Position numbers and translations under genes: made by a program. The notes under the pieces were generated by a model, which was given only the letters and a program-made list of their open reading frames with translations, was not told where the DNA came from and made no database searches. Below, piece by piece: positions 18,992 to 34,084 of a stretch of DNA of 35,544 bases; within the stretch, counting starts at the first letter, position 1; each line of letters starts with the position of its first letter. This stretch comes from Candidatus Pacearchaeota archaeon (lineage in GTDB: Archaea; Nanobdellota; Nanobdellia; Pacearchaeales; GW2011-AR1). The stretch is from assembly GCA_016784085.1 (NCBI GenBank), contig JADHVH010000001.1, positions 1-35,544 on the forward strand. Reading direction: 5' to 3'.

Positions 18992-18999
18992 TTTATATA
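18992..18999 (+). promoter_or_regulatory. TATA box (TTTATATA) 29 nt upstream of the ATG at 19021
   Basis: It is consensus-like and has the same spacing as the boxes at 11006, 28091 and 33558. Confidence 0.55.
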
Positions 19000-19020: not shown

Positions 19021-19734
19021 ATGAATAAAAAAGGTCAAATTACTATTTTTGTTGTTGTTGCAATTATTTTAATTGCTGTTATATCCCTATTTTATCTTTT
19101 TAAAGATAATTTAAGATCTAGCGGATCTGGAGAATATGATTACATTTATTCTTTTGTTGAAGAATGTATAAAAGATGTTGGGAAATCTGCAACATATTAT
19201 GTTTCAGAAAGAGGGGGCTATTTTATTCCTTCTGAATTATCTGCAGAAGAAATTCCCTACTATTACTATTCAGGGCAAAGTTATTTGCCTTCAAAAGAAC
19301 AAATTGAGGATGAAATTTCAAAATATGTAAATGAAATGTTATTTTTCTGCACTCAAAATTTTGTTGACTTTAGTGAAATTAATATCTCTCAAGGAAAAAT
19401 AAATTCTAAAACACATGTTCATGAAGAGGAAATTATTTTTGAGGTAGAATATCCAATTACTATTCAAAAAGGAGAAAATACTGTAATTATAAAGGATTTT
19501 GAAAATATTCCTATATTTATGAAACTAGGATCAATTTATGACTTATCTTCAGAAATAATTGAACAACAAAAAGGGAATAATGAAACTTGTTTAACCTGCC
19601 CTCTTAATTTTGCAATTGAACATGATCTTTATGTAGATATTTCCTTATATAACAATGATACAATATTATATCTTATTGAAGATCAAGATTATTCCCCCTC
19701 TCTTAAATTTAAATTTTTAAATAAATATAATTAA
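19021..19734 (+). CDS. class III signal peptide (type IV pilin-like) protein, paralog of the 28120 ORF
   Basis: The N-terminus is MNKKG|QITIFVVVAIILIAVISLFYLF. It is collinear with the 28120 product in the N-terminal helix, the ...GG[YS][FY] block, the IE.EI..[YS]V block and the C-terminal Y.[LE]....YS....F[KQ]F. Confidence 0.6.
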   Translation: MNKKGQITIFVVVAIILIAVISLFYLFKDNLRSSGSGEYDYIYSFVEECIKDVGKSATYYVSERGGYFIPSELSAEEIPYYYYSGQSYLPSKEQIEDEISKYVNEMLFFCTQNFVDFSEINISQGKINSKTHVHEEEIIFEVEYPITIQKGENTVIIKDFENIPIFMKLGSIYDLSSEIIEQQKGNNETCLTCPLNFAIEHDLYVDISLYNNDTILYLIEDQDYSPSLKFKFLNKYN

Positions 19735-19735
19735 A

Positions 19736-22108
19736 ATGAATAAAATAATTGCAATCCTTTTTGTTAGTATTTTTCTTTTTAGCTTTGTAGGGGCAGAAAA
19801 TATTGCTACAATAGATTTTCAAGGACTTGAATTTGTAGATTCAGATTTAATGCAAGAATTTCAAGAAGAAATTTGTGGAGAAGAATCTCTTAATCAAGAT
19901 TCTTGCCCTTTAGAAAATTCTTATGGAAAAATTGACAAAATCATTTCTCAAGAAAATTTGCTTTTAATTCAAAATATAAATCCTGAAGCAGCAAAGGCAA
20001 TAGAATTGAATAATCAAATTCAAGAATATGTCTCACAAGGAACACAAATTTTTGGAACCTTGGAAATAGATGAAATAGGGATTATTAGAAAAGGTATGTT
20101 TAAAGAGGGTTTTAAAACATTTGAAATTGGAAATTTTCTTAATCCTAAACTAAAACCAGAGTATGTTCAAATGAAAGGACAAGTTGAATTTATTTTTGCA
20201 TTTGCTCAAGAAGATTGGGCTCCTCTTGGAAAAGCAGAGATAATTCTTAATAAAGAAGGGGATTTTCTTGAAGCTATTAATTCTAATCCTTGCGCAGAAA
20301 TAAATTCTGAAGAAGATTGTGTCCCTGAAAAAACTATTTTTAATAACCTCCAATTTAACTTTGAGGGAGAGCCTATTGCAAATAGATTTGAATTAAATGA
20401 AAATGGTGAAATAACTTTTGCTAAATTTTATGTTAATGAAAATGGGGGAGAATATCTTATAGGAAATCAAATAATATATGCACCTTCTTCATCTTCTATT
20501 AAATATGAGAGGGGTTTGAATTCTATTTCAATTTTCATGGGTGTTAGCTCCAAACTAGATAATTTTCAAAAAAAAATTAATGATTCTCTAGGAGGAGCAG
20601 AAATTACTATTAAGGGGTCTGAACTTGAACTTCCCACTGGAGAAATATTGGAAGGAGAACTTTCTTATAAAGATAATAATTTTTTTATAAAATCTGGAAC
20701 TAAAAGATCTCTTTTAATTGATGGAATTAAATTTAAAAGTCCTGAAAAAGAAGATTTAACTGTATTTTTTGAAGGGGAACCTTCTGAGGATTTTCCTAAA
20801 AGTTATATTGCGTTTGATTCTAGGAAAGACCTTATTGTTTTAGATTCTAAAAAAGAGGTTATTTCAAATGTAGATCTTTATTATAGCCACTATAATTCTG
20901 AAAACTTAAGGATTAAAGAACTTCAAAATGCTAAAATAATTTTAGATACTAGGTCTTCTGAAAATTTAATACCTGAATTAAAAATAACTGAAAAAAAAGA
21001 CTCTAATTATGATCTTTTAATTGGAGAAATTGAAATTTACAATGAAAATGGAGAAATAAAAACAAAAATTAGAGATAATCTTAGAATTCCAAAATCTAGT
21101 ATAAGAGTGGCAATTGAAATAGATGATCAAGAAGGGAATAGCCTTCTTGGAACAGAAAGGTCTCCTCAAAAAATAATCACAAATGATTTTAATCAATTTT
21201 TATTTGTGCCTAAAGAAATTTCTGAAAAAGACATGATTGGTCCTGATTTTAGTGAAAGATTAAATTTTGATTATTCTGGAATTGAAAATGTTAAAAAAAA
21301 TATAGAAAAAGATTTTGGAATTGAAATTACTGGGGATGGGTCCCTTTATGATCTTAAAAGAATAAGAGATCTTCTTAATGCAGCTACTCCTGAAATGATT
21401 GGAGGTGTGAATAAAATTGAGCTTCTTAACGATGATGAAGATCTGAATGGTTTTGGGGGCGTTGCAAATCCTTATGGGAGAAAAATAAAGATACTAAATT
21501 CTGAATTAGACGGGGCTACCCTTATACATGAACTAGCACATACACGTACTTTTGAATTATTTCAAGAACCTAAAAGAATTTATGAAGAAGAATTTCAAGA
21601 TCTTAGATCAGACTATTTAAACAACCAAATAAGTGAAGAAGAATTTAGAATTTCAAGAGATAAATTAAAAAAGAAACATTCTTCCACTGGGAAAAGATTT
21701 AATTATTATCTTTTTCCAGAAGTTCAATTTATAAAAGAATGGGGAAATATTGCTGGAGATAATTATGGAAAAAATCTTGGTAAAAAGAGTTCTCTAAATC
21801 CAATATTTAAATTATTTAACATTGGGGTATCTAATGAATGGGCTGTAGATGAACTTAACAGTCCACTTTTAGGAGGAGACGGTAATTTCTTTGGTCCAAA
21901 AAATGGATTTATAAGACCTTATGGGGCAAATAATATTTTTGAAGATATTTCTACTTTTGTAGAAGAAACATATAAAAATCCAGCATTTTTTACAGATTTT
22001 TTAGATGTTAATTCAAAAGATTATGACCCCAGATATCTTGAAAAATTAAAATTATTAAAAAAATATGATTTTATAAGTGAAGAGGCTTATAACAATATTA
22101 TTAATTAA
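19736..22108 (+). CDS. large secreted protein (790 aa) with a HExxH zincin-like motif
   Basis: It has a Sec-type signal peptide (MNKIIAILFVSIFLFSFVGAEN). HELAH is encoded at 21526-21540 (GATLIHELAHTRTFELFQ), with acidic residues (EEEF) about 20 aa downstream that could serve as a third ligand. Otherwise I recognise no family. Confidence 0.55.
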   Translation: MNKIIAILFVSIFLFSFVGAENIATIDFQGLEFVDSDLMQEFQEEICGEESLNQDSCPLENSYGKIDKIISQENLLLIQNINPEAAKAIELNNQIQEYVSQGTQIFGTLEIDEIGIIRKGMFKEGFKTFEIGNFLNPKLKPEYVQMKGQVEFIFAFAQEDWAPLGKAEIILNKEGDFLEAINSNPCAEINSEEDCVPEKTIFNNLQFNFEGEPIANRFELNENGEITFAKFYVNENGGEYLIGNQIIYAPSSSSIKYERGLNSISIFMGVSSKLDNFQKKINDSLGGAEITIKGSELELPTGEILEGELSYKDNNFFIKSGTKRSLLIDGIKFKSPEKEDLTVFFEGEPSEDFPKSYIAFDSRKDLIVLDSKKEVISNVDLYYSHYNSENLRIKELQNAKIILDTRSSENLIPELKITEKKDSNYDLLIGEIEIYNENGEIKTKIRDNLRIPKSSIRVAIEIDDQEGNSLLGTERSPQKIITNDFNQFLFVPKEISEKDMIGPDFSERLNFDYSGIENVKKNIEKDFGIEITGDGSLYDLKRIRDLLNAATPEMIGGVNKIELLNDDEDLNGFGGVANPYGRKIKILNSELDGATLIHELAHTRTFELFQEPKRIYEEEFQDLRSDYLNNQISEEEFRISRDKLKKKHSSTGKRFNYYLFPEVQFIKEWGNIAGDNYGKNLGKKSSLNPIFKLFNIGVSNEWAVDELNSPLLGGDGNFFGPKNGFIRPYGANNIFEDISTFVEETYKNPAFFTDFLDVNSKDYDPRYLEKLKLLKKYDFISEEAYNNIIN

Positions 22109-22110
22109 AA

Positions 22111-22674
22111 ATGAAAAAAATATTAATTTTTATGCTTACTATTTTTCTATTAACAAGTGCTAGTGCAAGCATGCCTAAAATTTATGAAATAAGCCTTCAT
22201 TATTCAGATGGAGATTTTTCTCTTAATAATATTAGTGTTAAACTAGATGAAAATTCCTTAGAAAACATTCCTGGAGATTATACTGGAGAAATTATTTCTA
22301 GAGAAGGAAGTTTACTAGATATGTTTATTTTTGATATCCCTTCTTTTATCATTGCTGAAGATTTTGAAGGAGGAGGAAATATTATTTTTTACAATGAATC
22401 TGATTTTACAATTTATGCCCCCTATTATGAAAATGCTAAAGAAATTATTCTTTATTACAGTGAATATGAGGAAATTCTAAAAATAGTAGTAAATCAATTT
22501 TCATCATCTCTAGACAATCAAATTAATCTCCCTGAAGAAAACAATAGTCAGAATATTTCTTCAAATTATGAGAGTCAAACTCAAGAAAATACTAAAAAAT
22601 CTATCGAAGATTATTGGTGGGTTCTTTTAATTATTTTAATTATTTTAGTTGCGGTTTTAATAAAAAAGAAATAA
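22111..22674 (+). CDS. signal-peptide protein with a C-terminal TM anchor (187 aa)
   Basis: The N-terminal signal peptide is MKKILIFMLTIFLLTSASAS and the C-terminal anchor is YWWVLLIILIILVAVLIKKK. The ectodomain is acidic and Tyr-rich. Confidence 0.5.
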   Translation: MKKILIFMLTIFLLTSASASMPKIYEISLHYSDGDFSLNNISVKLDENSLENIPGDYTGEIISREGSLLDMFIFDIPSFIIAEDFEGGGNIIFYNESDFTIYAPYYENAKEIILYYSEYEEILKIVVNQFSSSLDNQINLPEENNSQNISSNYESQTQENTKKSIEDYWWVLLIILIILVAVLIKKK

Positions 22675-24024
22675 TTATTTTTTACCTTTTGCAATTCTGG
22701 CAAAATTTATTTTCTTTTTTTCTACACCTAAATATTTTTGTTTAAAGAACCAAAATAAGGCTAGAATTACTAAAAATACTAATAACCATCCAATTGTTTT
22801 GCCTAGATCTCCCCTATCTATTTTTTGCTCACATTCTGCTAAACAACAAAGACCATCTCTTGCAGGTTCTGTTTCTCCATTACAAATAAAATTTTCTTCA
22901 CAAATTACTCCTTGAATTTCTTCACAACTTTGTACAATAGCAGGATCATTTATTGTTTGGTTATTTTCTGGAAGAGGGATAAATTCTGGAAAAAATACTA
23001 AATCTATGGAGATAGAATCATTTAAAGTAAAACCATTTAATTTTGCCAAAATAAATCCTTCTAAAGACTTATTTTCTGAATCAGAAGTAAAATTAAGGGA
23101 TAACTTAAGGCTTTTATTTGCTTTTAATTCATCCACTGTATATTCAGATAATTCTAAATAAGGTTCTAAAGATTCTGAAATACTTAAAGAAATATTTTCT
23201 AAATCAGCTTCACCATCATTAAATAAATAAACTATTCTATTGGAGAGGTCATCAATATACATTGAAACAGAAATTTCTTGAGGTTCAAATTTAAAGCTTT
23301 TTTCTTTTAGTTCTTCAGGAATATTTGTAATAGTTACTTCAATAGGAATTTCATATTCTAGATTATTTGTACTTAATCTTACAAATTCAATTGTATTGTT
23401 AGTATTATTGGTGATATTCTCTAGATTAAAATAAATTTTTTTAGTTTCTCCCGGAATAAGGGTTATTGCATTATCTGAAATTTCATCTTCATTTGCAAAA
23501 AGGAAATCAAAAAAACCTATTGGCTCTTCTTCAGTTTCATTAAAATTAATATCAATTGTTATTTCTTGGTCTTGGAGATTTAAAGCCTCAATATAGAAAT
23601 TATTTTCTGCAACCACAAATCCAGGATTAATTGAAAAATCTGCTATTGATTCTAAAATTGTGAAATTTTTTTGGATTTCTTCTTCATTTGTTTGTCCTGC
23701 ACTAATATATCTTATATTTTTTAAAACAATAGAATAGTTTCCTGCTGTTTTACCAATTAATGAGGAATAAAGATAATATTCATTTCTTATTTTTGTTAAT
23801 TCAAATTCAAGAGGCACACTAGTATGTTGGTTTCTATAAAAAAAGATATTTTCTTCTTGTAAATTATCTACAAATGTTCCAGAAAATTTTATCATCATTG
23901 TTTCTCCTGTATTAAAATTATCTTTCATCTCTAAACTAATTGCAGAAACAAAAGATGGAAGTGTTATTAATAGAAATAAAGACAACACTAAAATTTTATT
24001 TATTTTAAATAAATCTATTTTCAT
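22675..24024 (-). CDS. surface protein: signal peptide, beta-sandwich-like repeats, one Cys-rich 'CC' module, C-terminal TM anchor
   Basis: It has a signal peptide (LFLLITLPSFVSA) and many N-x-S/T sequons. CARDB-like strings occur (VYLFNDGEADLENISLSI). The membrane-proximal module is CEEIQGVICEENFICNG...GLCCLAEC, followed by the TM helix IGWLLVFLVILALFWFF. Confidence 0.55.
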   Translation of the reverse strand: MKIDLFKINKILVLSLFLLITLPSFVSAISLEMKDNFNTGETMMIKFSGTFVDNLQEENIFFYRNQHTSVPLEFELTKIRNEYYLYSSLIGKTAGNYSIVLKNIRYISAGQTNEEEIQKNFTILESIADFSINPGFVVAENNFYIEALNLQDQEITIDINFNETEEEPIGFFDFLFANEDEISDNAITLIPGETKKIYFNLENITNNTNNTIEFVRLSTNNLEYEIPIEVTITNIPEELKEKSFKFEPQEISVSMYIDDLSNRIVYLFNDGEADLENISLSISESLEPYLELSEYTVDELKANKSLKLSLNFTSDSENKSLEGFILAKLNGFTLNDSISIDLVFFPEFIPLPENNQTINDPAIVQSCEEIQGVICEENFICNGETEPARDGLCCLAECEQKIDRGDLGKTIGWLLVFLVILALFWFFKQKYLGVEKKKINFARIAKGKK

Positions 24025-24071
24025 AAAAATGTTAAAGAAATGAGCTTAATAAAGTTTATTTTTCTAGAAAA

Positions 24072-25922
24072 CTATTTTCCCATCTCTCTTAATTTTCCAA
24101 GAACATCATCTAATTCACCTTTTCCCCTTTTTGCAGAAGAAGGAATTTGTCTTGGAGGCATTGGCCTTCTAGGTAATGGACCTCTTAATTGATGAACCAT
24201 TCTTGGAGGTCCTCTTCTAGGCCCATTAGGGCCTGTGGAATCCTTTTTTCCACTTTTCATTCTGAACATGAGTTCTCTTAACTTATCTTTGTAAATAATT
24301 CCAAGAACAATTAGAATTATTAATATTATTAAAATCCAAACCCAAATATTTGTTCCTTTTGGATCTGAAATTTCTTGACAACATACTTGGCTTGAAGAAC
24401 AACTATAATATGCTGTTTCCTCTTCGCCTGTTTCACAACTATATCTACAAACTCCAGAATTACTTGATTCACAAGTATTAGCACCAGTATTTTCTCCGTT
24501 ATCATCATCTATGTCTTCACAAGAACCCCAAACACAGCAAACTTCTCCAGAATATAGTAAATCATTTGCAGTAGCATCTTCAACTCCGTTTACACATCTT
24601 TGATTTGAATCACAAATTTCACCTTGTTTTTCTGAACAAGATTCAGAAAGCCCAACTTCACAACAAAAATATCCTGCTCCAGAACAAGTATATGAATCAA
24701 TAATTCTGCCCCCCCCATTCCAACAGGATTCCCGACCTTCACAAGAATATCCTGCAGTTTCACAAGTAGAAACAGGTTCTGGATCTACACTTCCTGTTGT
24801 TGCTCTTGGCCAAACAGAATAAAGTAAAAATGCATTTGATTTAATGTTTTTATTATCCCAACAACCGTCTTCATCTTGAACACCTTCTTCTAGAAGCCAA
24901 TTAATAGTATTTTGTTTTTCAACAATATCATCATATCTAAAAGGATATAATGCTAAGGCAGTATCATAGAATTTATTATTTGTAGAAATTTCCTGCCAAT
25001 ATTTATTGAAAATTTGTTTATTTAATAAGGAATATTGATATTCATTATTTTGAGTAATAAAATAAAGAAATGCTTCTGGTAAAAATCTATCATTTGTTTC
25101 ATCTTCAGCCATCACGATCAAATAAGGCATATATGAGGAAATATCTTCTCCAATAGATTCTAATGCTAATACAGACCACAGACTAGCTTCATAATTACAA
25201 ACACCAGATACTTCAAAACAATCTGAGTTTACAGATTCAATTGTTTTTCCATCTGCAGAAGCACCATTTGCTCCACTTAAAACATGAAGTGTTCCTGCTG
25301 AATCTCCACTATTTTTAAATATTAATGAACTTGTAAAATCCTGATCACATGAAATTTCAAAATCAGAACCATAGCAATTAGAATCTATATCTAACCAATA
25401 TCCTCCCTGAGATACTCTTAAACAATTATTTGTTTGCAAATTTCCGATTGTTTTATCTTCATTAAAATCAACATTGGTTGTTACAGGGTTTGAATTAATT
25501 TCATAAATTATTGAACATGTTGAAGCATCTGCAGTATCTATTTGTAAAAGCCATTCCATATTTGTAGGTGCTCCTTTTTGAGTAATTAACCAGTTTTTTG
25601 AGTCTTCAACACTTACACTTTTTTCATTTAAAGCCCACATAGCCATAGCAGTATTTTGCACATTACATCCTGAATTTGAAAAACATCCTGAATTTGCTTT
25701 TTCATCTAAAAGTTCTAATTTACATTTTCCTGTAGCTAAGAAAGAAAATACTTTTTCCTGCATTGAAAGGTCTTGACATCCTTTTTCAATAATTTCGCTA
25801 TTTAAACACGTGTAAGCATTATCTATTTGGGTAGAATTAAATTCAACTGAAGAAATAAAAGAGAGATTTGTTAGTAGGAATAAACAAACAAACAATATTG
25901 TAAATAGCCACTTCTTTTTCAT
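24072..25922 (-). CDS. surface protein: signal peptide, possible alpha/alpha-toroid ectodomain, three Cys-rich 'CC' modules, TM anchor, Pro/Arg-rich cytoplasmic tail
   Basis: It has a signal peptide (LFTILFVCLFLLTNLSFISS). QW-like strings (QDEDGCWDN, ASLWSVLALESIG) hint at a prenyltransferase/terpene-cyclase-like toroid, which is tentative. Three modules end in FCCEVG, VCCVWGSC and VCCQE. The TM helix is IWVWILIILIILIVLGIIY and the tail reads GPNGPRRGPPRMVHQLRGPLPRRPMPPRQIP. Confidence 0.55.
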   Translation of the reverse strand: MKKKWLFTILFVCLFLLTNLSFISSVEFNSTQIDNAYTCLNSEIIEKGCQDLSMQEKVFSFLATGKCKLELLDEKANSGCFSNSGCNVQNTAMAMWALNEKSVSVEDSKNWLITQKGAPTNMEWLLQIDTADASTCSIIYEINSNPVTTNVDFNEDKTIGNLQTNNCLRVSQGGYWLDIDSNCYGSDFEISCDQDFTSSLIFKNSGDSAGTLHVLSGANGASADGKTIESVNSDCFEVSGVCNYEASLWSVLALESIGEDISSYMPYLIVMAEDETNDRFLPEAFLYFITQNNEYQYSLLNKQIFNKYWQEISTNNKFYDTALALYPFRYDDIVEKQNTINWLLEEGVQDEDGCWDNKNIKSNAFLLYSVWPRATTGSVDPEPVSTCETAGYSCEGRESCWNGGGRIIDSYTCSGAGYFCCEVGLSESCSEKQGEICDSNQRCVNGVEDATANDLLYSGEVCCVWGSCEDIDDDNGENTGANTCESSNSGVCRYSCETGEEETAYYSCSSSQVCCQEISDPKGTNIWVWILIILIILIVLGIIYKDKLRELMFRMKSGKKDSTGPNGPRRGPPRMVHQLRGPLPRRPMPPRQIPSSAKRGKGELDDVLGKLREMGK

Positions 25923-25927
25923 ATGGT

Positions 25928-27277
25928 CTACAATGATTTCTTCTTTTTAAAATTATCTCTCTTATTTGTCTTTGGTTTAGATTTTTGTTTTGTTTTTTTC
26001 TTTGACTTTTCTAATTTATTTTGTTGCAATGTTTTTTTCACAGTATAGTTCACAGGATTTTTATATCTTAATTCTTCTTCAGTTGGAATAACTCCAATTC
26101 CCTTATAATGGTCTTTTAAAAAATTTGGAGGAGGAACAACTTTATTTCTATAATTCCAAATTAATTGAGATTGAATATATCCTTTCTTTAAAGGAATTTC
26201 ATTTTTTTCATTCCATTGGTAAATCCTTTTTTCAAGTTCTGCTCTTTCCATTCCTACTGATCTAAATAAACCTAATAAAATAAACAATGCTCTTTTTCTT
26301 CCGTCTCCTACTCCCTTTAATATTTTTTGAATAGAAGGAGAAAAGTTTTTTTCAGATAAATTCTCTAGTTTGATAACTTTATATTCAAAATTAGCATTTT
26401 CTTTTTGTTCTTCACTATTATTTTGTTTATACCAATCTAGTGCCTGCATAAGAAGTTCTTTTGCTTCTCCTTCTTTACAATCAGGTATAAATTTTTTTAT
26501 TTTTACCTTCATAGGATCTGCATGATTAAGATCAAAGTTCTCAAGTTCTTCAGGTGTTAAAACAATACTTGCCAAAGCTGTTTTTTCATGAAGAGAATAT
26601 GGCATTCTAAACAGATGTCTTGGAGAAACTAAAATTAAATCAGGAATAACCTGTGTTGAAGCTTTAAAATCACGAACATATTTACTAGGTTTTGTTAATG
26701 AGGAGATTTGTTCTACTAACTTTTTTTCAGTAGTGTGCATAATATATTGGAGCATTATTCTTGGCCACTCTGGAAACATATCTGCAGTTCTTACTCCATT
26801 AATATCTTTAGGAAAAGCTTTCCAAGGTATTATTAAATGAAAACCTTTTGATCCTGAAAATTTAATTCCCACATTATTAAATCCATGAAATTTTAACATT
26901 TCAATTATTATTTTTGCTAAAACTTTACTATAATCAATATACTTACTATCAATATCTAGGATAAGATCCCATCCTTTCCTTAATTCGTTTAATTGCTTTT
27001 TAGTTAATCCTGTAGATATTTTTAAAGGATCTTCCCAAATTTCTTCAGAACAATGGAAAGAAGTTGCTCCTTTTTTTACTAATTCAAAAATATCTCCCTT
27101 ATATTGAAATGAATCTGGTCTTTTACCAAAATGTTCCATCATAAAGCTTGGAGCTATTTCTCGATCTTCTGAAAAATCAAAAAGAGCTTGTTGAACTTCT
27201 GGTTTAGAATAATATAATTGAAGTATTTTTTTAATTCTTTTTTCCTTTAAACTAGAGTTTTCAGGCTTATTTTCCAT
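25928..27277 (-). CDS. priS: archaeo-eukaryotic DNA primase (PriS catalytic core with a C-terminal helical extension)
   Basis: AEP catalytic motifs are present: DLILDIDS (DxD), FSGSKGFHLIIPW (SGxGxH) and FRMPYSLHEKT. The C-terminal ~150 aa carry FSPSIQKILKGVGDGRKRALFILLGLF, reminiscent of the PriL-CTD 'FPPC...' block. A K-rich tail follows. The whole protein has only two Cys. Confidence 0.85.
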   Translation of the reverse strand: MENKPENSSLKEKRIKKILQLYYSKPEVQQALFDFSEDREIAPSFMMEHFGKRPDSFQYKGDIFELVKKGATSFHCSEEIWEDPLKISTGLTKKQLNELRKGWDLILDIDSKYIDYSKVLAKIIIEMLKFHGFNNVGIKFSGSKGFHLIIPWKAFPKDINGVRTADMFPEWPRIMLQYIMHTTEKKLVEQISSLTKPSKYVRDFKASTQVIPDLILVSPRHLFRMPYSLHEKTALASIVLTPEELENFDLNHADPMKVKIKKFIPDCKEGEAKELLMQALDWYKQNNSEEQKENANFEYKVIKLENLSEKNFSPSIQKILKGVGDGRKRALFILLGLFRSVGMERAELEKRIYQWNEKNEIPLKKGYIQSQLIWNYRNKVVPPPNFLKDHYKGIGVIPTEEELRYKNPVNYTVKKTLQQNKLEKSKKKTKQKSKPKTNKRDNFKKKKSL

Positions 27278-27363
27278 GCAAAATTAAATCTCTAACAATA
27301 TATATAAATTACCTTATACTTAATAATAACAATACTTAAAAGTAAAACTTGTCTGATACAAAG

Positions 27364-28089
27364 ATGCTCGTAAAACTAGATCACCCTGCAATATTAACAA
27401 AAGCTGTAGAAATTATTTCAGAGTTAGTTACAGAAGTTAGAATAAAAATAAGTGAAACTGGTTTAGGTATAACTGCAATGGATCCTGCTAATGTTGCAAT
27501 GATTGGATTTAAAATACCTAGAACTGCTTTTTCAGCTTTTGAAACAGGTGAAGAAGTGCTTGGAATTAATTTAGATAATTTAAAAAGAATATTAAAAAGA
27601 TGTGGAACAAATAGTTCACTAATATTTGAAAAAAAAGATAATTTATTGGAAATTCAAATTGAAGATAGAATTAAAAGAATTTTTACATTGAATTTAATTG
27701 AAATTGATTCTGAAGATAAGGAAATTCCTAATTTAGAATATAGTTCTAAAGTTGAAATAGCTTCTGTAGATTTAATTGCAGCTGTAGAAGATTGTGCAAT
27801 TGTTGCAGATGCTTGTAAATTTGAAATTAAAGATAATAAATTTATTATTCAGGCTAAAGGATTGAATTCTACTCTTTCTGAATTTTCAAGTGATGAGGCT
27901 ACCATTGAAGCTGAAAATTGTAAATCAAAATATAGTCTAGAATATTTACAAAAATTTGTAAAAGGTTCAAAACTTTCTGAAAAAACTCTTTTAAAATTTG
28001 CAGAAGACCATCCATTAAGAATTGATATTCAAACAGCACAAATTGGATTAAGTTTTATTCTTGCTCCAAGAGTAGAAACTGAAGATTAA
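27364..28089 (+). CDS. pcn: DNA polymerase sliding clamp PCNA
   Basis: It has the typical PCNA N-terminus (LVKLDHPAILTKAVEIISELVTEVRIKISETGLGITAMDPANVAM), a length of about 241 aa, and a C-terminal LSFILAPRVE. The ORF track starts at a TTG at 27349; the first ATG is at 27364. Confidence 0.9.
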   Translation: MLVKLDHPAILTKAVEIISELVTEVRIKISETGLGITAMDPANVAMIGFKIPRTAFSAFETGEEVLGINLDNLKRILKRCGTNSSLIFEKKDNLLEIQIEDRIKRIFTLNLIEIDSEDKEIPNLEYSSKVEIASVDLIAAVEDCAIVADACKFEIKDNKFIIQAKGLNSTLSEFSSDEATIEAENCKSKYSLEYLQKFVKGSKLSEKTLLKFAEDHPLRIDIQTAQIGLSFILAPRVETED

Positions 28090-28090
28090 T

Positions 28091-28098
28091 TTTATAAA
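28091..28098 (+). promoter_or_regulatory. TATA box (TTTATAAA) 29 nt upstream of the ATG at 28120
   Basis: It is consensus-like, is followed by TTTTCT as at 33558, and has the same 29-nt spacing as the other operon heads. Confidence 0.55.
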
Positions 28099-28119
28099 CT
28101 AAGTTTTCTTAAAGAAAGC

Positions 28120-28890
28120 ATGGGTGATACTTTAAACAAAAGAGGTCAAGTTACAATTTTTATTGTAGTTGCTATTGTTATTATTGCTATTGCTGCATTA
28201 CTATATCTTTTTTCTCCAAGTGTAAAATCTATTATTAGTCCTGATACTCAAAATCCTGAAGAATTTATTAGAGAATATCTTCAAGAAGAAATTGAAATGA
28301 ATATTCAAACTATTGCTATGCAGGGTGGAAGTTATGACTTAGAAAATATAGGTACTGCTAACTATGGAGAATATGAAGTTTCTTATTTATGTTATACTGA
28401 AGATCCTGCTCCTCTAAAATGTAGTTTATCTACTGCAGGAAATACTTTAATTCCATATATTGAAAGAGAAATAAAAAATTCTGTTGAACCTCTTGTAGAT
28501 AGTTCTTTTGATGCTCTTAAAAAAAGTTATGAAGAAGAAGGATATTCTGTAGATATAAAACCAGGAGACATTGAGGTAATTATAGTAGATAAACAAATAA
28601 AAATTAATATGGATTATAAGGTTCGTTTAGAAAAAGAAAATATAGATGAATATGAACAATTTAATATACTTGTAAATACTAATCTTTTTCAACTACTAAT
28701 CATTGCTACAAATATATTGCAATATGAAGCTAGTGTAGGTGTTGCAGATCCAAACAGATATTTAAACTCTGAAGGTCCAAAAGGATTTATCTGGCAAAAA
28801 GAACTATTAGCAGATGGAACAAAAATTTATGAACTTGAAAATATTTATAGTGAAGATAAATTTCAATTTGCAGTTAAGGGGGGATTATGA
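28120..28890 (+). CDS. class III signal peptide (type IV pilin-like) protein, paralog of the 19021 ORF
   Basis: The N-terminus is MGDTLNKRG|QVTIFIVVAIVIIAIAALLYLF. It is collinear with the 19021 product. Confidence 0.6.
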   Translation: MGDTLNKRGQVTIFIVVAIVIIAIAALLYLFSPSVKSIISPDTQNPEEFIREYLQEEIEMNIQTIAMQGGSYDLENIGTANYGEYEVSYLCYTEDPAPLKCSLSTAGNTLIPYIEREIKNSVEPLVDSSFDALKKSYEEEGYSVDIKPGDIEVIIVDKQIKINMDYKVRLEKENIDEYEQFNILVNTNLFQLLIIATNILQYEASVGVADPNRYLNSEGPKGFIWQKELLADGTKIYELENIYSEDKFQFAVKGGL

Positions 28891-30599
28891 AAAATAAAAC
28901 AATATTAAGTCTATTATTAATGATTTTTGTAGTTGTAGTTTCAATTAATTTAGTGAGTGCTGTTTGCTGTGAAAAAACAATTGAGGGGAATTCTTGTGTT
29001 TCTGTACCTCCTGAAAATTCAGATGCTTGTGTAAAACCACCTTATAAATCAGATGATGCTTTTTGTGAAGAAACTTCATATTGTTCTACAGGGACTTGTG
29101 TAAATACTAGACAGGGAACTTGTACTGTGAGTCCTTCTACAACTTGTGATCCTCTTTTAGGGGGGCTTTGGGTTGATGATTCTCCAGAAGATGTTCCTCA
29201 ATGCCAAGTAGGGTGTTGCATTATTGGTGAAGAAGCTAACTTTATTACAGAAACTTCTTGCATCTATAAAGTTTCTATAATTGAAGAGGAAACAGAATAT
29301 GAGTTTTTAAAAAATGTCCAAGACGGGGGAATGTGTGCTTCTTTAGCAAATCCTAGAGAAATGGGTGCTTGCGTAGATTCTGATAGTTCTGGAGGGAGAG
29401 ATTGCACTCATGAAACAAGAGAAAATTGTCAAAATAGCGGGCTAGATTTTTATGAAGGCTTTTTATGTTCTGCTCCTGAATTAAATACAAAATGTGGCCC
29501 TTCAGATACTACTTCTTGTATGGAAGGAGAAGAAGAAGTTTATTTTAGAGATACTTGTGGAAATTATGCAAATGTTTATGATGTTACTAAAATAGATGAT
29601 ACTTTAGGATATTGGACAGAAATGATAAGTACAGCAAATAGTTGTTTTACAGATATTGGTGATGAAAATAGTGTTTCTTCTTGTGGCAATTGTGTTTTTA
29701 GATTAGGAAGTACTTGTGGTAAATATCGTCCTGGAGAAGATGTGGCTCCAGACGAAGGGAACTATGTTTGCAGAGATTTAAGTTGTGAGTATGATAATGA
29801 TGGAGATGGTATAAAAGAATCATATGAACACGAAGAAAGATGGTGTGCAGATGCAGGATGGATAGATGGGACTCCTGGTAAAGAGGAAATTGTTTTAACT
29901 TGCTATAATGGTCAAATTACTAAGGAAAGATGTTCTTCATACAGAAAACAAGTTTGTTTCGAAACAGTATATGCTGAAGAAGAAATAGATGATAATTATA
30001 CTATTAAAGAAGAGGATTTTACTCAGGCTGCATGTGTTGTTAATAGTTATCCTGCATGTTATGGGTTCCAAACTAAATCAGATTGCGAAGATCAGGAATT
30101 AGTAGATTGTCAATGGCTTTTAGCAAATAAAGATACCAATTTATATGATAGTCTTTGGGAAAGCACAGAACTAGGTATTCCAGAAAATATGAAAAATAGT
30201 GAAAAAGGTTTTTGTCTTCCAGCATATGCTCCTGGGATAAAATTCTGGGAAGAAGAGGCTGCTTCAAGTTGTAATAGTTTTATACCTTCAGAATATGTTT
30301 GCGGAGTAGAATATGAAAAAGGTTTAATTGAAGTAGGAAAATATGGTGATTGGGATCTTGTAGAAGATGAGGTCACTTGTTTTAAAGAAACAACTTCTAA
30401 GGCAGATGATTTGCCTAAAACTAAATTAGACTCTACTTGGCAAACTCAAATGAAAAATGTTTGTTTAGCAACTTCTGATTGTGGTGTAAAAACAAATTAT
30501 TTAGGAGTAAATGGATATTATTCTTGGAAAGACTTGTTTGTAGGAGATTATATTGAAGATAGTTTAAGTAATTATAATAGCTATGGAGGAGGAAAATGA
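28887..30599 (+). CDS. secreted, extremely Cys-rich acidic protein (570 aa)
   Basis: It has a signal peptide (LSLLLMIFVVVVSINLVSA). My hand count gives about 41 Cys, spread along the whole mature chain and including CC pairs (AVCCEK, VGCCIIG). There is no TM anchor. It has an ATGA overlap with the upstream gene and a G-rich SD-like AGGGGGG. Confidence 0.6.
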   Translation: MKNKTILSLLLMIFVVVVSINLVSAVCCEKTIEGNSCVSVPPENSDACVKPPYKSDDAFCEETSYCSTGTCVNTRQGTCTVSPSTTCDPLLGGLWVDDSPEDVPQCQVGCCIIGEEANFITETSCIYKVSIIEEETEYEFLKNVQDGGMCASLANPREMGACVDSDSSGGRDCTHETRENCQNSGLDFYEGFLCSAPELNTKCGPSDTTSCMEGEEEVYFRDTCGNYANVYDVTKIDDTLGYWTEMISTANSCFTDIGDENSVSSCGNCVFRLGSTCGKYRPGEDVAPDEGNYVCRDLSCEYDNDGDGIKESYEHEERWCADAGWIDGTPGKEEIVLTCYNGQITKERCSSYRKQVCFETVYAEEEIDDNYTIKEEDFTQAACVVNSYPACYGFQTKSDCEDQELVDCQWLLANKDTNLYDSLWESTELGIPENMKNSEKGFCLPAYAPGIKFWEEEAASSCNSFIPSEYVCGVEYEKGLIEVGKYGDWDLVEDEVTCFKETTSKADDLPKTKLDSTWQTQMKNVCLATSDCGVKTNYLGVNGYYSWKDLFVGDYIEDSLSNYNSYGGGK

Positions 30600-33556
30600 T
30601 TTTAAAAAATAAAAAATCAGCAATATTTAATATTATTAGTTTGATTATTAGTGTTTTTGCCTTTTCTTTTATTCTCGGAGGAGGAGTTGGTTTTGTAAGT
30701 GCAGAAGAACCTATTGTTGCTCTTTGTGATGGGGAATCTATGGGGCTTTTATCTTCTACTCTTTTTAATTGTGATCCTAATTGGCAATCAACTGTAGAGG
30801 ATCTTTTTGAAACAACACCTGCAATTCCAGGTTCAGAAACTACCTGTGAAACAATTTATCAATCTTTCATAGAAATCTTTCCAGAATATGAACCAGATAC
30901 CTTAAATGCTCCAGATAATGTGGCTACAAATTGTTTAAATACTGGGGGAGGAAGTTTTTATTTGGAAGTTGCAGATAATTCTGCTTTAAATGCTTGGAAT
31001 GCTTATTTTGCAGATCATCAAGATGAAATTGTTTATCCTACACCTGCAAGTAATAATTGTGATAATCTTTGGAATAATTTTATTAATGCTAATCCTGAAT
31101 GTGTATATGATCCTCTTGCAAATCCTGAAGAGGAAGAGGAAACTCCAGAAGTTCAAAACTGGAGAACACAAGTTTGTGCAGAAGAAGATTCAAGAACATA
31201 TCTTTTTGAAAAGCCAGAAACAAGAGAAGGTCAAGATCGTCAAGGTAATTATGTTATTTATTACTGGGATCGTCTTGTAAATGCTCATGTGGGTTCAGAT
31301 AATCCAGCTATGCCTTGTGAAAAAACATTTGAATTTTTAGATGATAACTGGGAAATTTTAAGCACTGCCAACATAGATCTCGAACTATGTACTATTAATG
31401 ATATATATTGTACTGGAGAGGGATCTATTGATTTAGGAGATTGTATTGTGTGTAGTGATGACGGTGAAGAAAAAGATAATGCTCTAGATGGGCAAAATCA
31501 AGATAATTCTGGATCTGAAGGTGGAGAAGAGGAAGAGGGTGGTTTTATGACTTGGATAAACACTGCTCTTGGAGGAATTGGTTTATTTAATTCAGGGGTA
31601 GGGGATGTAGAGAAAGCTGGAAAAAGCGTGAAAACAGTTAAAAGTTGGTTTGCTGGAGGAGGAACTGCTTCTGGAAAAGCTGCCGAGTCTAAAGTACTTA
31701 ATTTTATATTTAAAACTAAATCTGCAGGATCTGGTCCTTGGCATGGTGCCGCAAGATTTACAGTTCATGTAGGTGTTGCAGTTGTTATTGGCTATACTGT
31801 TACAGCAATATTAAAACAATTTCCAGGAATAGACCCTAGGAATGCAGAAGCAGCAGGATGGGCAGCAGGAATAGGATATTTGAGTGCTCAAACCTTGGCA
31901 GCAGCACTTCCAGGACTTGCAGGAGCAGGACCAGTGGCATTAGTTGCAGTAGGGATATCTGCAGTTATTTATGCTTTCTTACATAAAGACTATGATACAA
32001 ATCTTGTTTCTTTTTCTTGTAATGCTTGGCAACCTCCTTCTGGAGGAGAATATTGTGAAGAATGTAATGATTTTGGAATTTTAGGATGTACAGAATATCA
32101 ATGTAAAAGTTTGGGAAGATCTTGCGTATTAATAAATGAGGGTAACCCCCAATATCAATCTTGTGAGTGGAATAATTCAGATGATATAATCCCCCCTACA
32201 ATTCAAGCTTGGGAAGAAATATTAGATGAGGATTATGAATATCAGGAACTAGGTGCAGAATATCCTGGAGAAAAAGGAGTTAAACTTGTTTACAAACATT
32301 CAGATGATGGTTGTTCTCCAGCTTTCCACCAATTAGAAATAGGTCTTAAGTTAAATAAATTTGGAAGATGTAAAATGGATCCTGTTAGAGAACAAGTTTA
32401 TGAGGATTTGAGATTTGGATTTGGAGGAGGAGCAGTTGACAAATATAATCATTCACAAGTATTTACTTTCCCTGGAACTGCTAATTTAGTTCAAAATGGA
32501 TATCCTGTTTATAATGATGGAGATTATGGGTTTTATGTGAGATGTGAAAGTACAAATGGATATACTTCTGGAACCTTTGTCTTTGATTTTTGTATTGAAA
32601 AAGGTGAGGATCGATCTGCTCCAAGAATTTTTGGATCAAGTCCTGCTAAGGGATCATATATACCATTTAATACTAGTGAAATAGAAGTTGAATTATATTT
32701 AGACGAACCTTCTCAATGTAAATGGGATTGGTCTGAAAAACCCTATAATGAAATGGCTAATGAAATTCCTTTATCTTCATGTGCGAATATTAATGAATCT
32801 GAAATAAATCTTCAAAAAACAACATATCCTTGTGCAACTACCTTAACAGGGATCCAAGATAATGTTGAAAATAATTTTTACTTTAAATGTATGGACCAAC
32901 CTGAATTAATAGGTAATGAAAATAAAAGAAATGTGATGGGGGTAGATTATTTTTATGTTTTAGATCTTCAGGGAACAATGCCATTAGCATTAACAACTGT
33001 AGGGCCTCAAGATAAAACAATTACTGCTTCAAATTCCCCTGTAAAAGTAGAACTAACTGCAACTACAGAACAAGGTGCAGAAAATGGAAAAGCTTATTGT
33101 CAATATAGCCCTACTGGAGCCTGGAATGATTACACTTATTTTGATAATAGTGCATCTCAAACACATTCTACAGATGTACGGTTAACAGCAGGAAATTATA
33201 ACTACTATATCCAATGTCAAGATGCAGGAGGAAACTTTGATACAAAAACTATTAACTTTACAGTGGATGTTGATGAATCTTATTCTATAATTACTAGAGC
33301 ATATAAAGATAATAATTATCTAAAGATTATTACCAACGAAGAAGCTGAATGTAGATTTAGTACAGATCCTCGTCCTGAATCAGCATGTACTTATAGCTTT
33401 GATGATGGGACTTTGATGAATAATATTGGTAAGACTCAGCATTTTACTGCATGGGATTCTGATAAGAATTTCTATATAAAATGTAAAGATTCATATGGTA
33501 ACCTCCCTGATTATGATCAGTGTAGTGTAGTCATAAGGCCCTTTGATCTTGCATAA
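30596..33556 (+). CDS. giant membrane protein (986 aa): N-terminal Cys-containing ectodomain, central Gly/Ala-rich 4-TM block, C-terminal ectodomain with three repeated Cys-framed modules
   Basis: It has a signal/anchor (IFNIISLIISVFAFSFILGGGVGFVSA). The TM block is encoded at about 31520-32000 (FTVHVGVAVVIGYTVTAIL, AAGWAAGIGYLSAQTLAAAL, GPVALVAVGISAVIYAFL). Three C-terminal modules end in FYFKCMD, YYIQCQDAGGN and FYIKCKDSYGN. It has an ATGA overlap with the upstream gene and a GGAGGAGG SD. Confidence 0.6.
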   Translation: MILKNKKSAIFNIISLIISVFAFSFILGGGVGFVSAEEPIVALCDGESMGLLSSTLFNCDPNWQSTVEDLFETTPAIPGSETTCETIYQSFIEIFPEYEPDTLNAPDNVATNCLNTGGGSFYLEVADNSALNAWNAYFADHQDEIVYPTPASNNCDNLWNNFINANPECVYDPLANPEEEEETPEVQNWRTQVCAEEDSRTYLFEKPETREGQDRQGNYVIYYWDRLVNAHVGSDNPAMPCEKTFEFLDDNWEILSTANIDLELCTINDIYCTGEGSIDLGDCIVCSDDGEEKDNALDGQNQDNSGSEGGEEEEGGFMTWINTALGGIGLFNSGVGDVEKAGKSVKTVKSWFAGGGTASGKAAESKVLNFIFKTKSAGSGPWHGAARFTVHVGVAVVIGYTVTAILKQFPGIDPRNAEAAGWAAGIGYLSAQTLAAALPGLAGAGPVALVAVGISAVIYAFLHKDYDTNLVSFSCNAWQPPSGGEYCEECNDFGILGCTEYQCKSLGRSCVLINEGNPQYQSCEWNNSDDIIPPTIQAWEEILDEDYEYQELGAEYPGEKGVKLVYKHSDDGCSPAFHQLEIGLKLNKFGRCKMDPVREQVYEDLRFGFGGGAVDKYNHSQVFTFPGTANLVQNGYPVYNDGDYGFYVRCESTNGYTSGTFVFDFCIEKGEDRSAPRIFGSSPAKGSYIPFNTSEIEVELYLDEPSQCKWDWSEKPYNEMANEIPLSSCANINESEINLQKTTYPCATTLTGIQDNVENNFYFKCMDQPELIGNENKRNVMGVDYFYVLDLQGTMPLALTTVGPQDKTITASNSPVKVELTATTEQGAENGKAYCQYSPTGAWNDYTYFDNSASQTHSTDVRLTAGNYNYYIQCQDAGGNFDTKTINFTVDVDESYSIITRAYKDNNYLKIITNEEAECRFSTDPRPESACTYSFDDGTLMNNIGKTQHFTAWDSDKNFYIKCKDSYGNLPDYDQCSVVIRPFDLA

Positions 33557-33557
33557 A

Positions 33558-33565
33558 TTTATAAG
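33558..33565 (+). promoter_or_regulatory. TATA box (TTTATAAG) 29 nt upstream of the ATG at 33587
   Basis: It is consensus-like, is followed by TTTTCT, and has the same spacing as the boxes at 11006, 18992 and 28091. Confidence 0.55.
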
Positions 33566-33586: not shown

Positions 33587-34084
33587 ATGAAAAAGAGAGG
33601 TCAGATGAAAATATCATTTGGAATGATTTTTTCAATTATTTTAATTATTATTTTTCTAAGTTTTTCTTTTGCAGCTATTAAAAAATTTGTAAGTATAAGT
33701 AATTCTGCGAAGTTAGCTCAATTTAAAGATGATTTTCAAGAAGATATGGATCGTCTTTGGAGAGGTTCTAGAGGAAATCAAAGTTTAGAATATAATATTC
33801 CTTCAAAAATAACTCATGTTTGTTTTGCAGATTATACTAAAGGCCCGGGAGGCGACGGAGAATTATATTATGATGAAATGGAACGTTATTTTTTCGAATA
33901 TGAAAATATGTTTATATTTCCACCAGAATCTGCAGAAGGTTTAGAAGCTACAACAATAAATCATTTGAATCTAGACGAGACAACTAGAATTACAAATCCT
34001 CTTTGTATTGAAAATAAAAAAGGAACTATTACCCTTAAAATTACTAAAGATTATGGTGAAAGTTTAGTCACAATATCTAGATAA
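33587..34084 (+). CDS. class III signal peptide (type IV pilin-like) protein, 165 aa
   Basis: The N-terminus is MKKRG|QMKISFGMIFSIILIIIFLSFSFAAI, followed by a small soluble domain. Confidence 0.6.
   Translation: MKKRGQMKISFGMIFSIILIIIFLSFSFAAIKKFVSISNSAKLAQFKDDFQEDMDRLWRGSRGNQSLEYNIPSKITHVCFADYTKGPGGDGELYYDEMERYFFEYENMFIFPPESAEGLEATTINHLNLDETTRITNPLCIENKKGTITLKITKDYGESLVTISR

What the first reader, a model, noticed from the sequence alone, without database searches (positions are those of the whole stretch)
19021..33556. Two paralogous cassettes: a pilin-like head gene followed by giant secreted proteins
The operon heads at 19021 (237 aa) and 28120 (256 aa) are clear paralogs. Their N-terminal helices are near-identical (KKGQITIFVVVAIILIAVISLFYLF versus KRGQVTIFIVVAIVIIAIAALLYLF). 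They share collinear blocks: F[VI].E..[IL] ... GG[YS][FY], then IE.EI..[YS]V, then a C-terminal Y.[LE]....YS....F[KQ]F. Each has a TTTATA box exactly 29 nt upstream. Each is followed, with 1-nt spacing or an ATGA overlap, by a large signal-peptide protein (790 aa versus 570 aa) and then a membrane-anchored protein (187 aa versus 986 aa). The downstream partners do not look alike by eye. This suggests a duplicated scaffold gene paired with diversified cargo or adhesin genes.
Basis: seen in the sequence. Interest (0 to 1): 0.65.

Follow-up and report, generated by a model that had tools for sequence, protein, structure and literature searches.

The report
Pilin-like head genes paired with large surface proteins
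A tiny symbiotic-type (DPANN) archaeon carries two copies of an uncharacterised pilin-like membrane protein, each made together with a different large secreted protein. This "head plus partner" module is widespread and duplicated in related archaea, and probably builds their cell surface or host-attachment equipment.

Summary
Genes 19021-19734 and 28120-28890 are true but remote paralogs. Pairwise comparison sees only the N-terminal helix: BLASTP E=0.012, and soluble domains z=-0.27. Family profiles align over the full length (hhalign E=2e-29). With the helix removed they still align (E=3.6e-15, 195 columns).

Both carry an EppA-type class III (prepilin-like) signal, K[KR]GQ[IV]T-I-F plus a hydrophobic helix. 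Two disulfide pairs covary perfectly.

The soluble domain gave a confident AlphaFold model (pLDDT 88.5). It has no significant Foldseek match and no Pfam, NCBIfam or PHROG hit. The family has at least 6000 cluster representatives.

All 80 genome loci retrieved carry DPANN-type synteny (Pacearchaeota/Woesearchaeota/Nanoarchaeota). In these loci 98 of 106 heads are followed directly by a large secreted protein. Head clade tracks partner type, and up to three modules occur in tandem.

Cassette 2 belongs to a conserved cluster: PCNA, head, Cys-rich 570 aa, membrane 986 aa, then four more pilin-like genes, a regulator and an S-layer-like gene. Cassette 1 is a lineage-specific extra module whose 790-aa partner has an invariant HExxH.

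The likeliest role is a pilin-like adaptor that tethers or presents its partner. That function is inferred, not shown.

The parts
18992..18997 (+). TTTATA box 29 nt upstream of head 1 (promoter of cassette 1, leaderless transcript)
   Evidence: The same spacing occurs at 7 of 41 ORFs in the window, so this is generic promoter geometry.
19021..19734 (+). Head 1 (H1, 237 aa). It has a class III-type signal MNKKG|QITIF, a hydrophobic helix and an extracytoplasmic alpha/beta domain. Its Cys49-Cys110 pair is shared with the H2 family. It also has a family-specific CxxC at 190-193.
19736..22108 (+). Partner of head 1 (790 aa). Secreted: signal peptide, no anchor. It has an invariant HELAH at 598-602. 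Only 3 homologues were found (54-68% identity).
   Evidence: No Pfam or PDB hit. The AF2 model is poor.
22111..22674 (+). Third gene of cassette 1 (187 aa): signal peptide plus a C-terminal TM anchor ending in KKK.
   Evidence: Present in the two closest relatives and absent from the 80 loci.
28091..28096 (+). TTTATA box 29 nt upstream of head 2
28120..28890 (+). Head 2 (H2, 256 aa). It has a class III-type signal ...NKRG|QVTIF, a helix and an alpha/beta domain. The AF2 model has pLDDT 88.5.
28887..30599 (+). Partner of head 2 (C570). Secreted protein with 41 Cys, about 30 of them invariant among orthologues. Present in 77 of 80 loci.
30596..33556 (+). M986. Signal peptide, hypervariable N-terminal ectodomain, acidic linker, at least 2 internal TM segments, then a conserved Cys-rich C-terminal ectodomain with a weak Ig-like hit. 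It is fused to a C570-like part in the ~1200-1380-aa partners of extra heads.
33558..33563 (+). TTTATA box 29 nt upstream of the next unit
33587..34084 (+). Pilin-like protein p165 (KKRG|QMKISF plus helix), conserved right after M986
34086..35021 (+). Pilin-like protein p311 (KKA/G..LQ.SF plus helix)
35015..35539 (+). Pilin-like protein p174 (KKG|QMKIQQ plus helix). A fourth pilin-like gene (~160 aa), an HTH regulator and an S-layer-like gene follow beyond the window.
22675..25922 (-). Two divergently oriented surface proteins conserved in the same neighbourhood: 449 aa and Cys-rich 616 aa. Each has a signal peptide and a C-terminal TM.
   Evidence: Found in 37 and 49 of 80 loci.

Best explanation
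The two heads belong to one large, uncharacterised family of DPANN-archaeal class III signal peptide (type IV pilin-like) proteins.

Proposed mechanism:
- Each head is translated from the first cistron of a leaderless operon.
- It inserts N-in/C-out.
- A prepilin peptidase probably cuts it after K-[KR]-G, leaving Gln+1 as in EppA substrates.
- Its hydrophobic helix keeps it in the membrane or in a short type-IV-filament-like stub.
- Its disulfide-bonded alpha/beta ectodomain binds the large secreted protein made from the next, translationally coupled cistron.
- The head thereby tethers or presents that partner at the cell surface. This is how minor pilins present a non-pilin tip adhesin.

Duplication of the head-plus-partner module, followed by partner replacement or fusion, diversifies the surface repertoire.
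- Cassette 2 (head, C570, M986) is the universal core, together with four further pilin-like genes.
- Cassette 1 (head, 790-aa HExxH protein, 187-aa anchor) is a lineage-specific extra module.

Shown: homology, signal motif, disulfide covariation, operon linkage, tandem modules, and head/partner co-diversification.

Inferred: cleavage, physical head-partner binding, filament incorporation, and a role in adhesion or host contact.
For: Homology across the whole length, including the soluble domain, with negative controls.

Signal motif:
- [KR][GSA]Q[VITLM][TS]xF is present in 98 of 110 heads and in 101 of 140 distant representatives. Leaders are mostly 4-14 residues.
- It equals the KGQV/KGQI/KGQL processing sites of the M. 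maripaludis Epd pilins cleaved by EppA, which requires Gln+1 (PMC4371748 Table 1 and text, read).
- Q+1, T+3 and F+5 are invariant inside an otherwise generic helix. That argues for recognition by machinery rather than a plain anchor.
- Four more genes of the same cluster carry the same kind of signal.
- A relative, L084, has Peptidase_A24 and four small pilin-like genes about 2.4 kb from a head-1 family gene.

Extracytoplasmic domain: Cys53/129 and Cys91/101 are present or absent strictly as pairs, with no singletons in 110 heads. This indicates an extracytoplasmic, disulfide-bonded domain.

Linkage to partners:
- 98 of 106 heads are followed directly by a large signal-peptide protein with +1/-4/0 nt spacing.
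- The head-1 clade is monophyletic (15 of 15). Heads that precede C570 form one clade (72 of 74). Heads that precede the fusion proteins fall outside it.
- C570 and M986 occur fused in the partner of 21 extra heads, which is Rosetta-stone evidence that they act together.

Precedent: other archaeal T4P loci combine five or more minor pilins with large adhesin-like and Cys-rich proteins and S-layer-like genes. The same paper could not identify cognate pilins in nanoarchaeal genomes (PMC4858521).
Against: - No TFF ATPase, platform protein or prepilin peptidase lies within about 10 kb in the 80 loci or around the window.
- Nothing matches the curated pilin or class III signal models at E<=0.1.
- In the AF2 model the N-terminal helix is separated from the globular part by a low-confidence linker at residues 35-42. 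The ectodomain is three helix-plus-sheet units. Foldseek found no pilin or any other significant match.
- There is no Glu at +5.
- No direct evidence exists for head-partner contact.
- The partners carry no recognisable adhesin domain.
Confidence: 0.5

Rival explanations
1. The heads are ordinary bitopic (signal-anchor, uncleaved) membrane proteins. They act as dedicated membrane-tethered chaperones, assembly factors or anchors for the large secreted partner. No type IV filament machinery or prepilin peptidase is involved.
For: - No TFF genes lie in the neighbourhood.
- The globular fold is not pilin-like, and a flexible linker follows the helix.
- The 790- and 570-aa partners lack an anchor of their own, so a tether would make sense.
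- Gene spacing suggests tight translational coupling.
Against: - The K-G-Q-x-T-x-F motif at the start of the helix is near-invariant. It is identical to EppA-type cleavage sites.
- Four other proteins of the cluster share the same signal type.
- Peptidase_A24 lies next to a family member in L084.
Confidence: 0.3
2. The whole conserved cluster encodes a fixed cell-envelope complex. The cluster comprises the head, C570, M986, four pilin-like proteins and the adjacent S-layer-like gene. The complex would be an S-layer-associated pore or a cell-cell bridge apparatus. The heads would be stoichiometric structural subunits, not adaptors for exchangeable partners.
For: - Synteny is near-universal across the 80 loci and lies next to an S-layer-like gene.
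- M986 has internal TM segments flanked by two ectodomains.
- C570 and M986 occur as fusions.
- Many Cys are invariant.
Against: - Heads also pair with unrelated, fast-evolving partners: the 790-aa family and the 597-832-aa proteins.
- Module number varies from 1 to 3 per locus.
- The head-1 module sits at two different positions.
- These features fit exchangeable modules better than a fixed complex.
Confidence: 0.15
3. The resemblance is only the shared hydrophobic or class III N-terminus, and the soluble parts are unrelated. On this reading the genes are not real paralogs.
For: Pairwise BLASTP covers only residues 1-68 (E=0.012). Smith-Waterman on the soluble domains gives z=-0.27.
Against: - Helix-trimmed profile comparison gives E=3.6e-15 over 195 columns.
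- Controls against other pilin-like families give probability below 8%.
- The Cys53/Cys129 pair is shared.
- A joint profile recovers both families.
Confidence: 0.02

Closest known systems
EppA-processed Epd minor and major pilins of Methanococcus maripaludis (archaeal TFF 'system 1')
   Same: Both have a short basic leader, a K-G-Q-[VIL] processing site with Gln+1, and a roughly 20-residue hydrophobic helix. Both systems have several such genes per genome, not all next to the assembly genes (PMC4371748; bioRxiv 10.64898/2026.04.22.720090, places system 1 partly in DPANN).
   Different: The heads have Phe rather than Glu at +5. They carry a much larger (about 220 aa) alpha/beta ectodomain with no detectable similarity to known pilins. 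They do not match PF04021, PF07790 or the TIGR models. No ATPase or platform gene is nearby.
Minor-pilin plus PilY1-type tip-adhesin modules. Examples are bacterial fimU-pilVWXY1E and archaeal T4P loci with five or more minor pilins and large DUF2341/PilY-like proteins (Makarova et al. 2016, PMC4858521).
   Same: Several pilin-like genes are co-transcribed with large non-pilin secreted proteins. Cys-rich components and S-layer-like genes lie in the locus. The proposed logic is that pilin-like subunits present a big partner.
   Different: The partners here have no PilY1 propeller, vWA or DUF2341 domain, and no known domain at all. The head-partner unit is itself duplicated in tandem with different partners. 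That pattern is not described in the two archaeal T4P/TFF surveys I read.
Archaeal bindosome-type class III signal peptide proteins, i.e. sugar-binding proteins with pilin-like N-termini
   Same: In both, a class III signal is attached to a large, non-pilin functional ectodomain, and the genes lie away from TFF machinery.
   Different: The heads have no substrate-binding-protein fold and no ABC-transporter neighbours. They are instead coupled to large secreted proteins.

Membership tests
Archaeal class III signal peptide / type IV pilin-like proteins (EppA-type) | Short positively charged leader ending in [KR]-[GA], Gln at +1, then a ~20-residue hydrophobic helix | tested here: met
   H1 is MNKKG|QITIFVVVAIILIAV and H2 is ..NKRG|QVTIFIVVAIVIIAI. 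The motif occurs in 98 of 110 heads and 101 of 140 representatives, with leaders mostly 4-14 aa. The Epd pilin sites KGQV/KGQI come from PMC4371748.
Archaeal class III signal peptide / type IV pilin-like proteins (EppA-type) | Match to curated models (Pfam Class_IIIsignal PF04021, Pilin_N PF07790; NCBIfam arch_flag_Nterm) | tested here: not met
   No Pfam hit at E<=0.1 and no NCBIfam hit at E<=1 to these models, for the heads or for p165/p311/p174. These models are short and insensitive.
Archaeal class III signal peptide / type IV pilin-like proteins (EppA-type) | Cleavage by an A24 prepilin peptidase encoded in the same genome | tested here: inconclusive
   Peptidase_A24 lies about 2.4 kb from a head-1 family gene in L084. 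None was seen in the 46.7 kb of the window's own contig that could be read. Cleavage itself cannot be tested with these tools.
Archaeal class III signal peptide / type IV pilin-like proteins (EppA-type) | Pilin architecture: a continuous N-terminal alpha-1 helix packed on a beta-sheet or Ig-like globular domain | tested here: not met
   The AF2 model (pLDDT 88.5) has helix 8-31, a low-confidence linker at 35-42, then three helix-plus-sheet units. Foldseek found no hit at E<=0.001 and no pilin among the 50 best PDB matches listed.
Type IV filament (TFF) locus | Secretion ATPase plus TadC/FlaJ platform gene in the locus | tested here: not met
   The ORF maps of 80 loci (+/-10 kb) and unknown-ORF clustering show no recurrent family that looks like an ATPase or platform. 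These unknown ORFs were not scanned against Pfam. Pfam hits on the genes called 10 kb either side of the window show no ATPase or platform family.
PilY1 / DUF2341-type pilus tip adhesins (for the partner proteins) | PilY1 C-terminal beta-propeller, vWA or DUF2341 domain | tested here: not met
   No Pfam hit for the 790-, 570- or 986-aa proteins even at E<=10 on sub-regions. Profile searches of the PDB were empty.
Zincin metallopeptidases (for the 790-aa partner) | HExxH zinc-binding motif in a helix | tested here: met
   HELAH at 598-602 is invariant in all 4 family members. It uses 2 of only 4 His in the protein, against a chance expectation of 0.002. The head-1 partner in L057 has HEYEH.
Zincin metallopeptidases (for the 790-aa partner) | Sequence or structure match to a peptidase family | tested here: not met
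   No Pfam or PDB match. The AF2 model is too poor to search (pLDDT 51).
Phage or mobile-element proteins | Match to PHROG families | tested here: not met
   No PHROG hit for heads or partners at E<=0.01.

The most novel reading that the evidence does not exclude
The head family, C570, M986 and the four downstream pilin-like proteins would together form a previously unrecognised, DPANN-specific surface organelle. It could be an attachment or cell-cell bridging device next to the S-layer gene. Its pilin-like subunits would have a new fold and be assembled away from any canonical TFF locus. Extra head-plus-partner modules, such as the HExxH protein here, would be exchangeable effector or adhesin arms that set host specificity.
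Probability: 0.25. Interest if true: 0.78.

Novelty: new variant of a known kind. Interest (0 to 1): 0.55.

Why it matters
How Pacearchaeota- and Woesearchaeota-type DPANN archaea contact other cells or surfaces is unknown. The 2016 census of archaeal type IV pili (PMC4858521, read) could not identify cognate pilins in nanoarchaeal genomes.

This finding defines several things:
- a large family (about 6000 cluster representatives at E<=1e-10, and no Pfam or NCBIfam match for the window members or their 60 homologues) of EppA-type pilin-like proteins with a fold not found in the PDB;
- the invariable genetic coupling of this family to big secreted proteins;
- a conserved 7- to 10-gene surface cluster.

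It gives concrete candidates for proteomics, cryo-ET labelling and complex prediction. It also gives a modular "head plus partner" rule that could be used to mine unknown surface effectors in DPANN metagenomes.

Tried and rejected
- **Pairwise comparison of the two heads.** BLASTP and Smith-Waterman with shuffles were not significant outside the N-terminus. Only profiles work.
- **Family libraries.** Pfam, NCBIfam and PHROGs returned nothing for any cassette protein or for partners in other loci.
- **PDB sequence and profile searches.** Searches with the 790- and 986-aa proteins and with profiles of the head, 790-aa, C570 and M986 families returned nothing.
- **Foldseek with the head-2 model.** No hit at E<=0.001 against the PDB or BFVD. 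The best hits (TFIIA, RnlA, VirB8-like) have TM-scores of 0.1-0.2 and I reject them.
- **AF2 model of the 790-aa partner.** With only 4 sequences the model reached pLDDT 51 and was not used.
- **Homology between the partners of the two cassettes.** Rejected.
- **A common N-terminal module among head-1 partners.** Only borderline support: hhalign probability 59%, E=9.5e-5 (BLAST).
- **TATA box at -29 as a cassette-specific signal.** Rejected, because it is generic in this window.
- **Phage or defence-island origin.** No support was found from PHROGs. PADLOC was not run. The cluster is syntenic with PCNA and primase in most loci.
- **Polymorphic toxin/immunity reading.** Considered and set aside. 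The core module is conserved in position in all relatives, and the head precedes its partner.


Full report
**Context**

The window has about 28% G+C. It encodes archaeal markers: ribosomal proteins S19e and L31e, PCNA, the primase small subunit, form III RuBisCO and a TrmB regulator. It is part of a 90,107-bp metagenomic contig, ERZ24794666 NODE_816. The 80 best genome loci retrieved with the head-2 profile nearly all come from MAGs labelled Pacearchaeota, Woesearchaeota or Nanoarchaeota. Three are labelled otherwise. The organism is therefore a DPANN archaeon of that group.

**Checking the observation**

The TATA spacing is not special to the cassettes. TTTAWA lies 25-31 nt upstream of 12 of the 41 ORFs and exactly 29 nt upstream of 7, including the next unit at 33587. 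It marks three leaderless transcription units: 19021-22674, 28120-33556, and 33587 onward.

**Are the heads paralogs?**

The two sequences alone do not prove it.
- BLASTP aligns only residues 1-68 (E=0.012).
- A Smith-Waterman comparison of the soluble parts is no better than shuffled sequence (z=-0.27).

Each head does have its own family in public data: 12 and 48 cluster representatives respectively, none with a Pfam domain.

Profile-profile comparison settles the question.
- Full length: probability 99.8%, E=2.1e-29 over 231 columns.
- After removing the N-terminal helix from both alignments: 98.5%, E=3.6e-15 over 195 columns.
- The same helix-trimmed test against the four other pilin-like families of the cluster gives probabilities below 8%. 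The signal is therefore specific.

Both families share a near-invariant Cys pair, Cys53/Cys129 in head-2 numbering. The two Cys pairs of the superfamily are always present or absent together. There are 0 singletons among 110 heads, and the window's head 2 has lost one pair entirely. This indicates disulfides and therefore an extracytoplasmic domain.

**What the heads are**

The N-terminus is a textbook archaeal class III (prepilin-like) signal of the EppA type.
- It has a 4-14-residue basic leader, K-[KR]-G, then Q-[VI]-T-I-F and a hydrophobic helix.
- Q+1, T+3 and F+5 are invariant.
- The experimentally studied Epd pilins of Methanococcus maripaludis have the sites KGQV, KGQI and KGQL. Their peptidase EppA requires Gln+1 (PMC4371748).

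The ectodomain is another matter.
- AlphaFold gives a confident model (pLDDT 88.5, pTM 0.78).
- The model has a helix at 8-31, a flexible linker, then three helix-plus-antiparallel-sheet units.
- Foldseek finds nothing at E<=0.001 in the PDB or BFVD.
- No Pfam, NCBIfam or PHROG family matches.

A joint profile of both families finds 8723 cluster representatives at E<=0.001 among 1.84 billion representatives. Of these, 6041 score at E<=1e-10 and 1171 at E<=1e-30. The best 150 have a median length of about 259 aa. This is a large family with no match in the curated libraries I searched.

**Genomic linkage**

I mapped window proteins onto ORFs of the 80 loci with phmmer. This shows a strongly conserved cluster, in this order:
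- histone, u149, a ComEA-like protein and an MJ0538-family protein;
- on the opposite strand, a 449-aa surface protein, a Cys-rich 616-aa surface protein and primase;
- PCNA, then head, then C570, then M986, then p165, p311 and p174;
- a fourth pilin-like protein of about 160 aa, a reverse-strand HVO_A0114-type regulator, and a 750-900-aa S-layer-like protein.

p165, p311, p174 and the ~160-aa protein all carry K-[GA]-Q-type class III signals.

Of 106 heads with a downstream ORF, 98 are followed at once by a large protein:
- 73 by C570-type proteins;
- 21 by proteins of about 1000-1380 aa;
- 4 by other large proteins.

Spacing is mostly +1, -4 or 0 nt. The ~1000-1380-aa partners are fusions of a C570-like N-terminal part with the TM and C-terminal part of M986. 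This implies that C570 and M986 work together.

Among 41 loci that span PCNA to p165/p311, 27 have one head and 14 have two. L070 has three.

In a neighbour-joining tree the heads sort by partner type.
- The head-1 family is monophyletic (15 of 15).
- 72 of 74 C570-preceding heads form one clade.
- The fusion-preceding heads fall outside that clade.

**Cassette 1**

Head 1, the 790-aa protein and the 187-aa anchor occur in the same place in the two closest relatives. That place is between the MJ0538-family gene and the 449-aa gene.

In four other loci, a head-1-type gene followed by a 597-832-aa secreted protein sits between PCNA and the core head. The module has therefore moved within the cluster.

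The 790-aa protein has only three homologues among 5.8 billion proteins. It is unrelated to C570 and M986 at profile level. It has no known domain.

Two of its four His residues form an invariant HELAH motif, against a chance expectation of 0.002. The L057 partner has HEYEH. A zincin-like metallopeptidase site is therefore a reasonable lead, no more. The AF2 model was too poor to use (pLDDT 51). Head-1 partners may share an N-terminal module, but the evidence is borderline.

**Mechanism**

The best-supported reading (confidence about 0.5) treats the heads as pilin-like adaptors.
- They are class III signal proteins, probably processed at G|Q.
- They stay in the membrane or in a short filament through their helix.
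- Their disulfide-bonded ectodomain holds the co-translated large secreted partner.
- Whole head-plus-partner modules are duplicated and re-equipped.

This works like minor pilins presenting PilY1-type proteins. It also resembles the archaeal T4P loci described by Makarova et al. (PMC4858521). Those loci have five or more minor pilins, large adhesin-like proteins, Cys-rich components and S-layer-like genes. That paper could not identify cognate pilins in nanoarchaeal genomes.

Evidence against strict membership in a type IV filament system:
- No ATPase, platform or peptidase gene lies within about 10 kb.
- The ectodomain does not have a pilin fold.
- The partners have no PilY1, DUF2341 or vWA domain.

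One relative does have Peptidase_A24 and four small pilin-like genes about 2.4 kb from a family member.

The main rival (about 0.3) is an uncleaved bitopic anchor or chaperone for the partner. A fixed envelope complex is less likely (about 0.15), given the exchangeable partners. The "helix-only similarity" reading is refuted.

**Verdict**

What is there is a new, large family of EppA-type pilin-like proteins with an unmatched fold. The family is obligatorily coupled to large secreted proteins and embedded in a conserved DPANN surface-protein cluster. I rate it a new variant of a known kind, namely class III signal proteins with non-pilin partners. The function is still inferred, and interest is moderate.

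Noticed in passing
window 17985-18512 (+): A ComEA-like secreted DNA-binding protein. It has HHH_3 and HHH Pfam hits, an N-terminal signal and a C-terminal TM. It is conserved two genes upstream of the cluster in 20 of 80 loci. This is a possible link between this surface cluster and DNA uptake.
   Followed up: partly
window 2297-2875 (+): A further 192-aa protein with a class III-like N-terminus (MTNKKA|AMEMSVGTIVTVVLL). It lies far from the cluster and has no family hit.
   Followed up: no
window 25928-28089: Replication genes sit in the middle of the surface-protein cluster: primase small subunit on the minus strand and PCNA on the plus strand. This odd synteny is conserved in 57-65 of 80 loci.
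   Followed up: partly
window, 12 ORF starts (e.g. 1792-, 11035, 15429, 24072-25922-, 33587): TTTAWA lies 25-31 nt before the start codon, and exactly 29 nt before it at 7 genes. Transcripts in this genome appear to be mostly leaderless with a fixed TATA-to-ATG distance.
   Followed up: yes
window 19021-19734, residues 190-193: The head-1 family has an invariant CxxC (CLTC/CLSC) that the head-2 family lacks. It could be a redox-active or metal-binding site, or just a local disulfide.
   Followed up: no
window 30596-33556: The N-terminal ~470 residues of M986 are hypervariable among orthologues. This stretch holds the ectodomain, an acidic Gly/Glu linker and a Gly/Ala-rich TM region. The C-terminal ~500 residues are conserved, with many invariant Cys. 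This is the pattern expected if the N-terminal domain faces a changing target.
   Followed up: partly
L088 17410-17937 (about 6.5 kb beyond the window end, same contig): A small Exosortase_EpsH (archaeosortase-like) gene lies near the S-layer-like gene. Several cluster proteins end in a TM helix plus a basic tail, e.g. the 187-aa protein (...LIILVAVLIKKK). They could be sorting substrates.
   Followed up: no
window 24072-25922 (-): A 616-aa surface protein with 31 Cys. After its TM helix it has a Pro/Arg-rich cytoplasmic tail (GPNGPRRGPPRMVHQLRGPLPRRPMPPRQIP). It is conserved in 49 of 80 loci and has no family hit.
   Followed up: no
L004, L030, L035: These contigs carry the same archaeal PCNA-head-C570 synteny. 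Their MAGs are labelled Omnitrophota bacterium, 'bacterium' and Methanosarcinales, so they are probably mis-binned DPANN contigs.
   Followed up: no
window 4291-5565 (+): A form III-type RuBisCO large subunit lies directly after cysteinyl-tRNA synthetase. To my knowledge this is typical of DPANN nucleotide-salvage metabolism.
   Followed up: no
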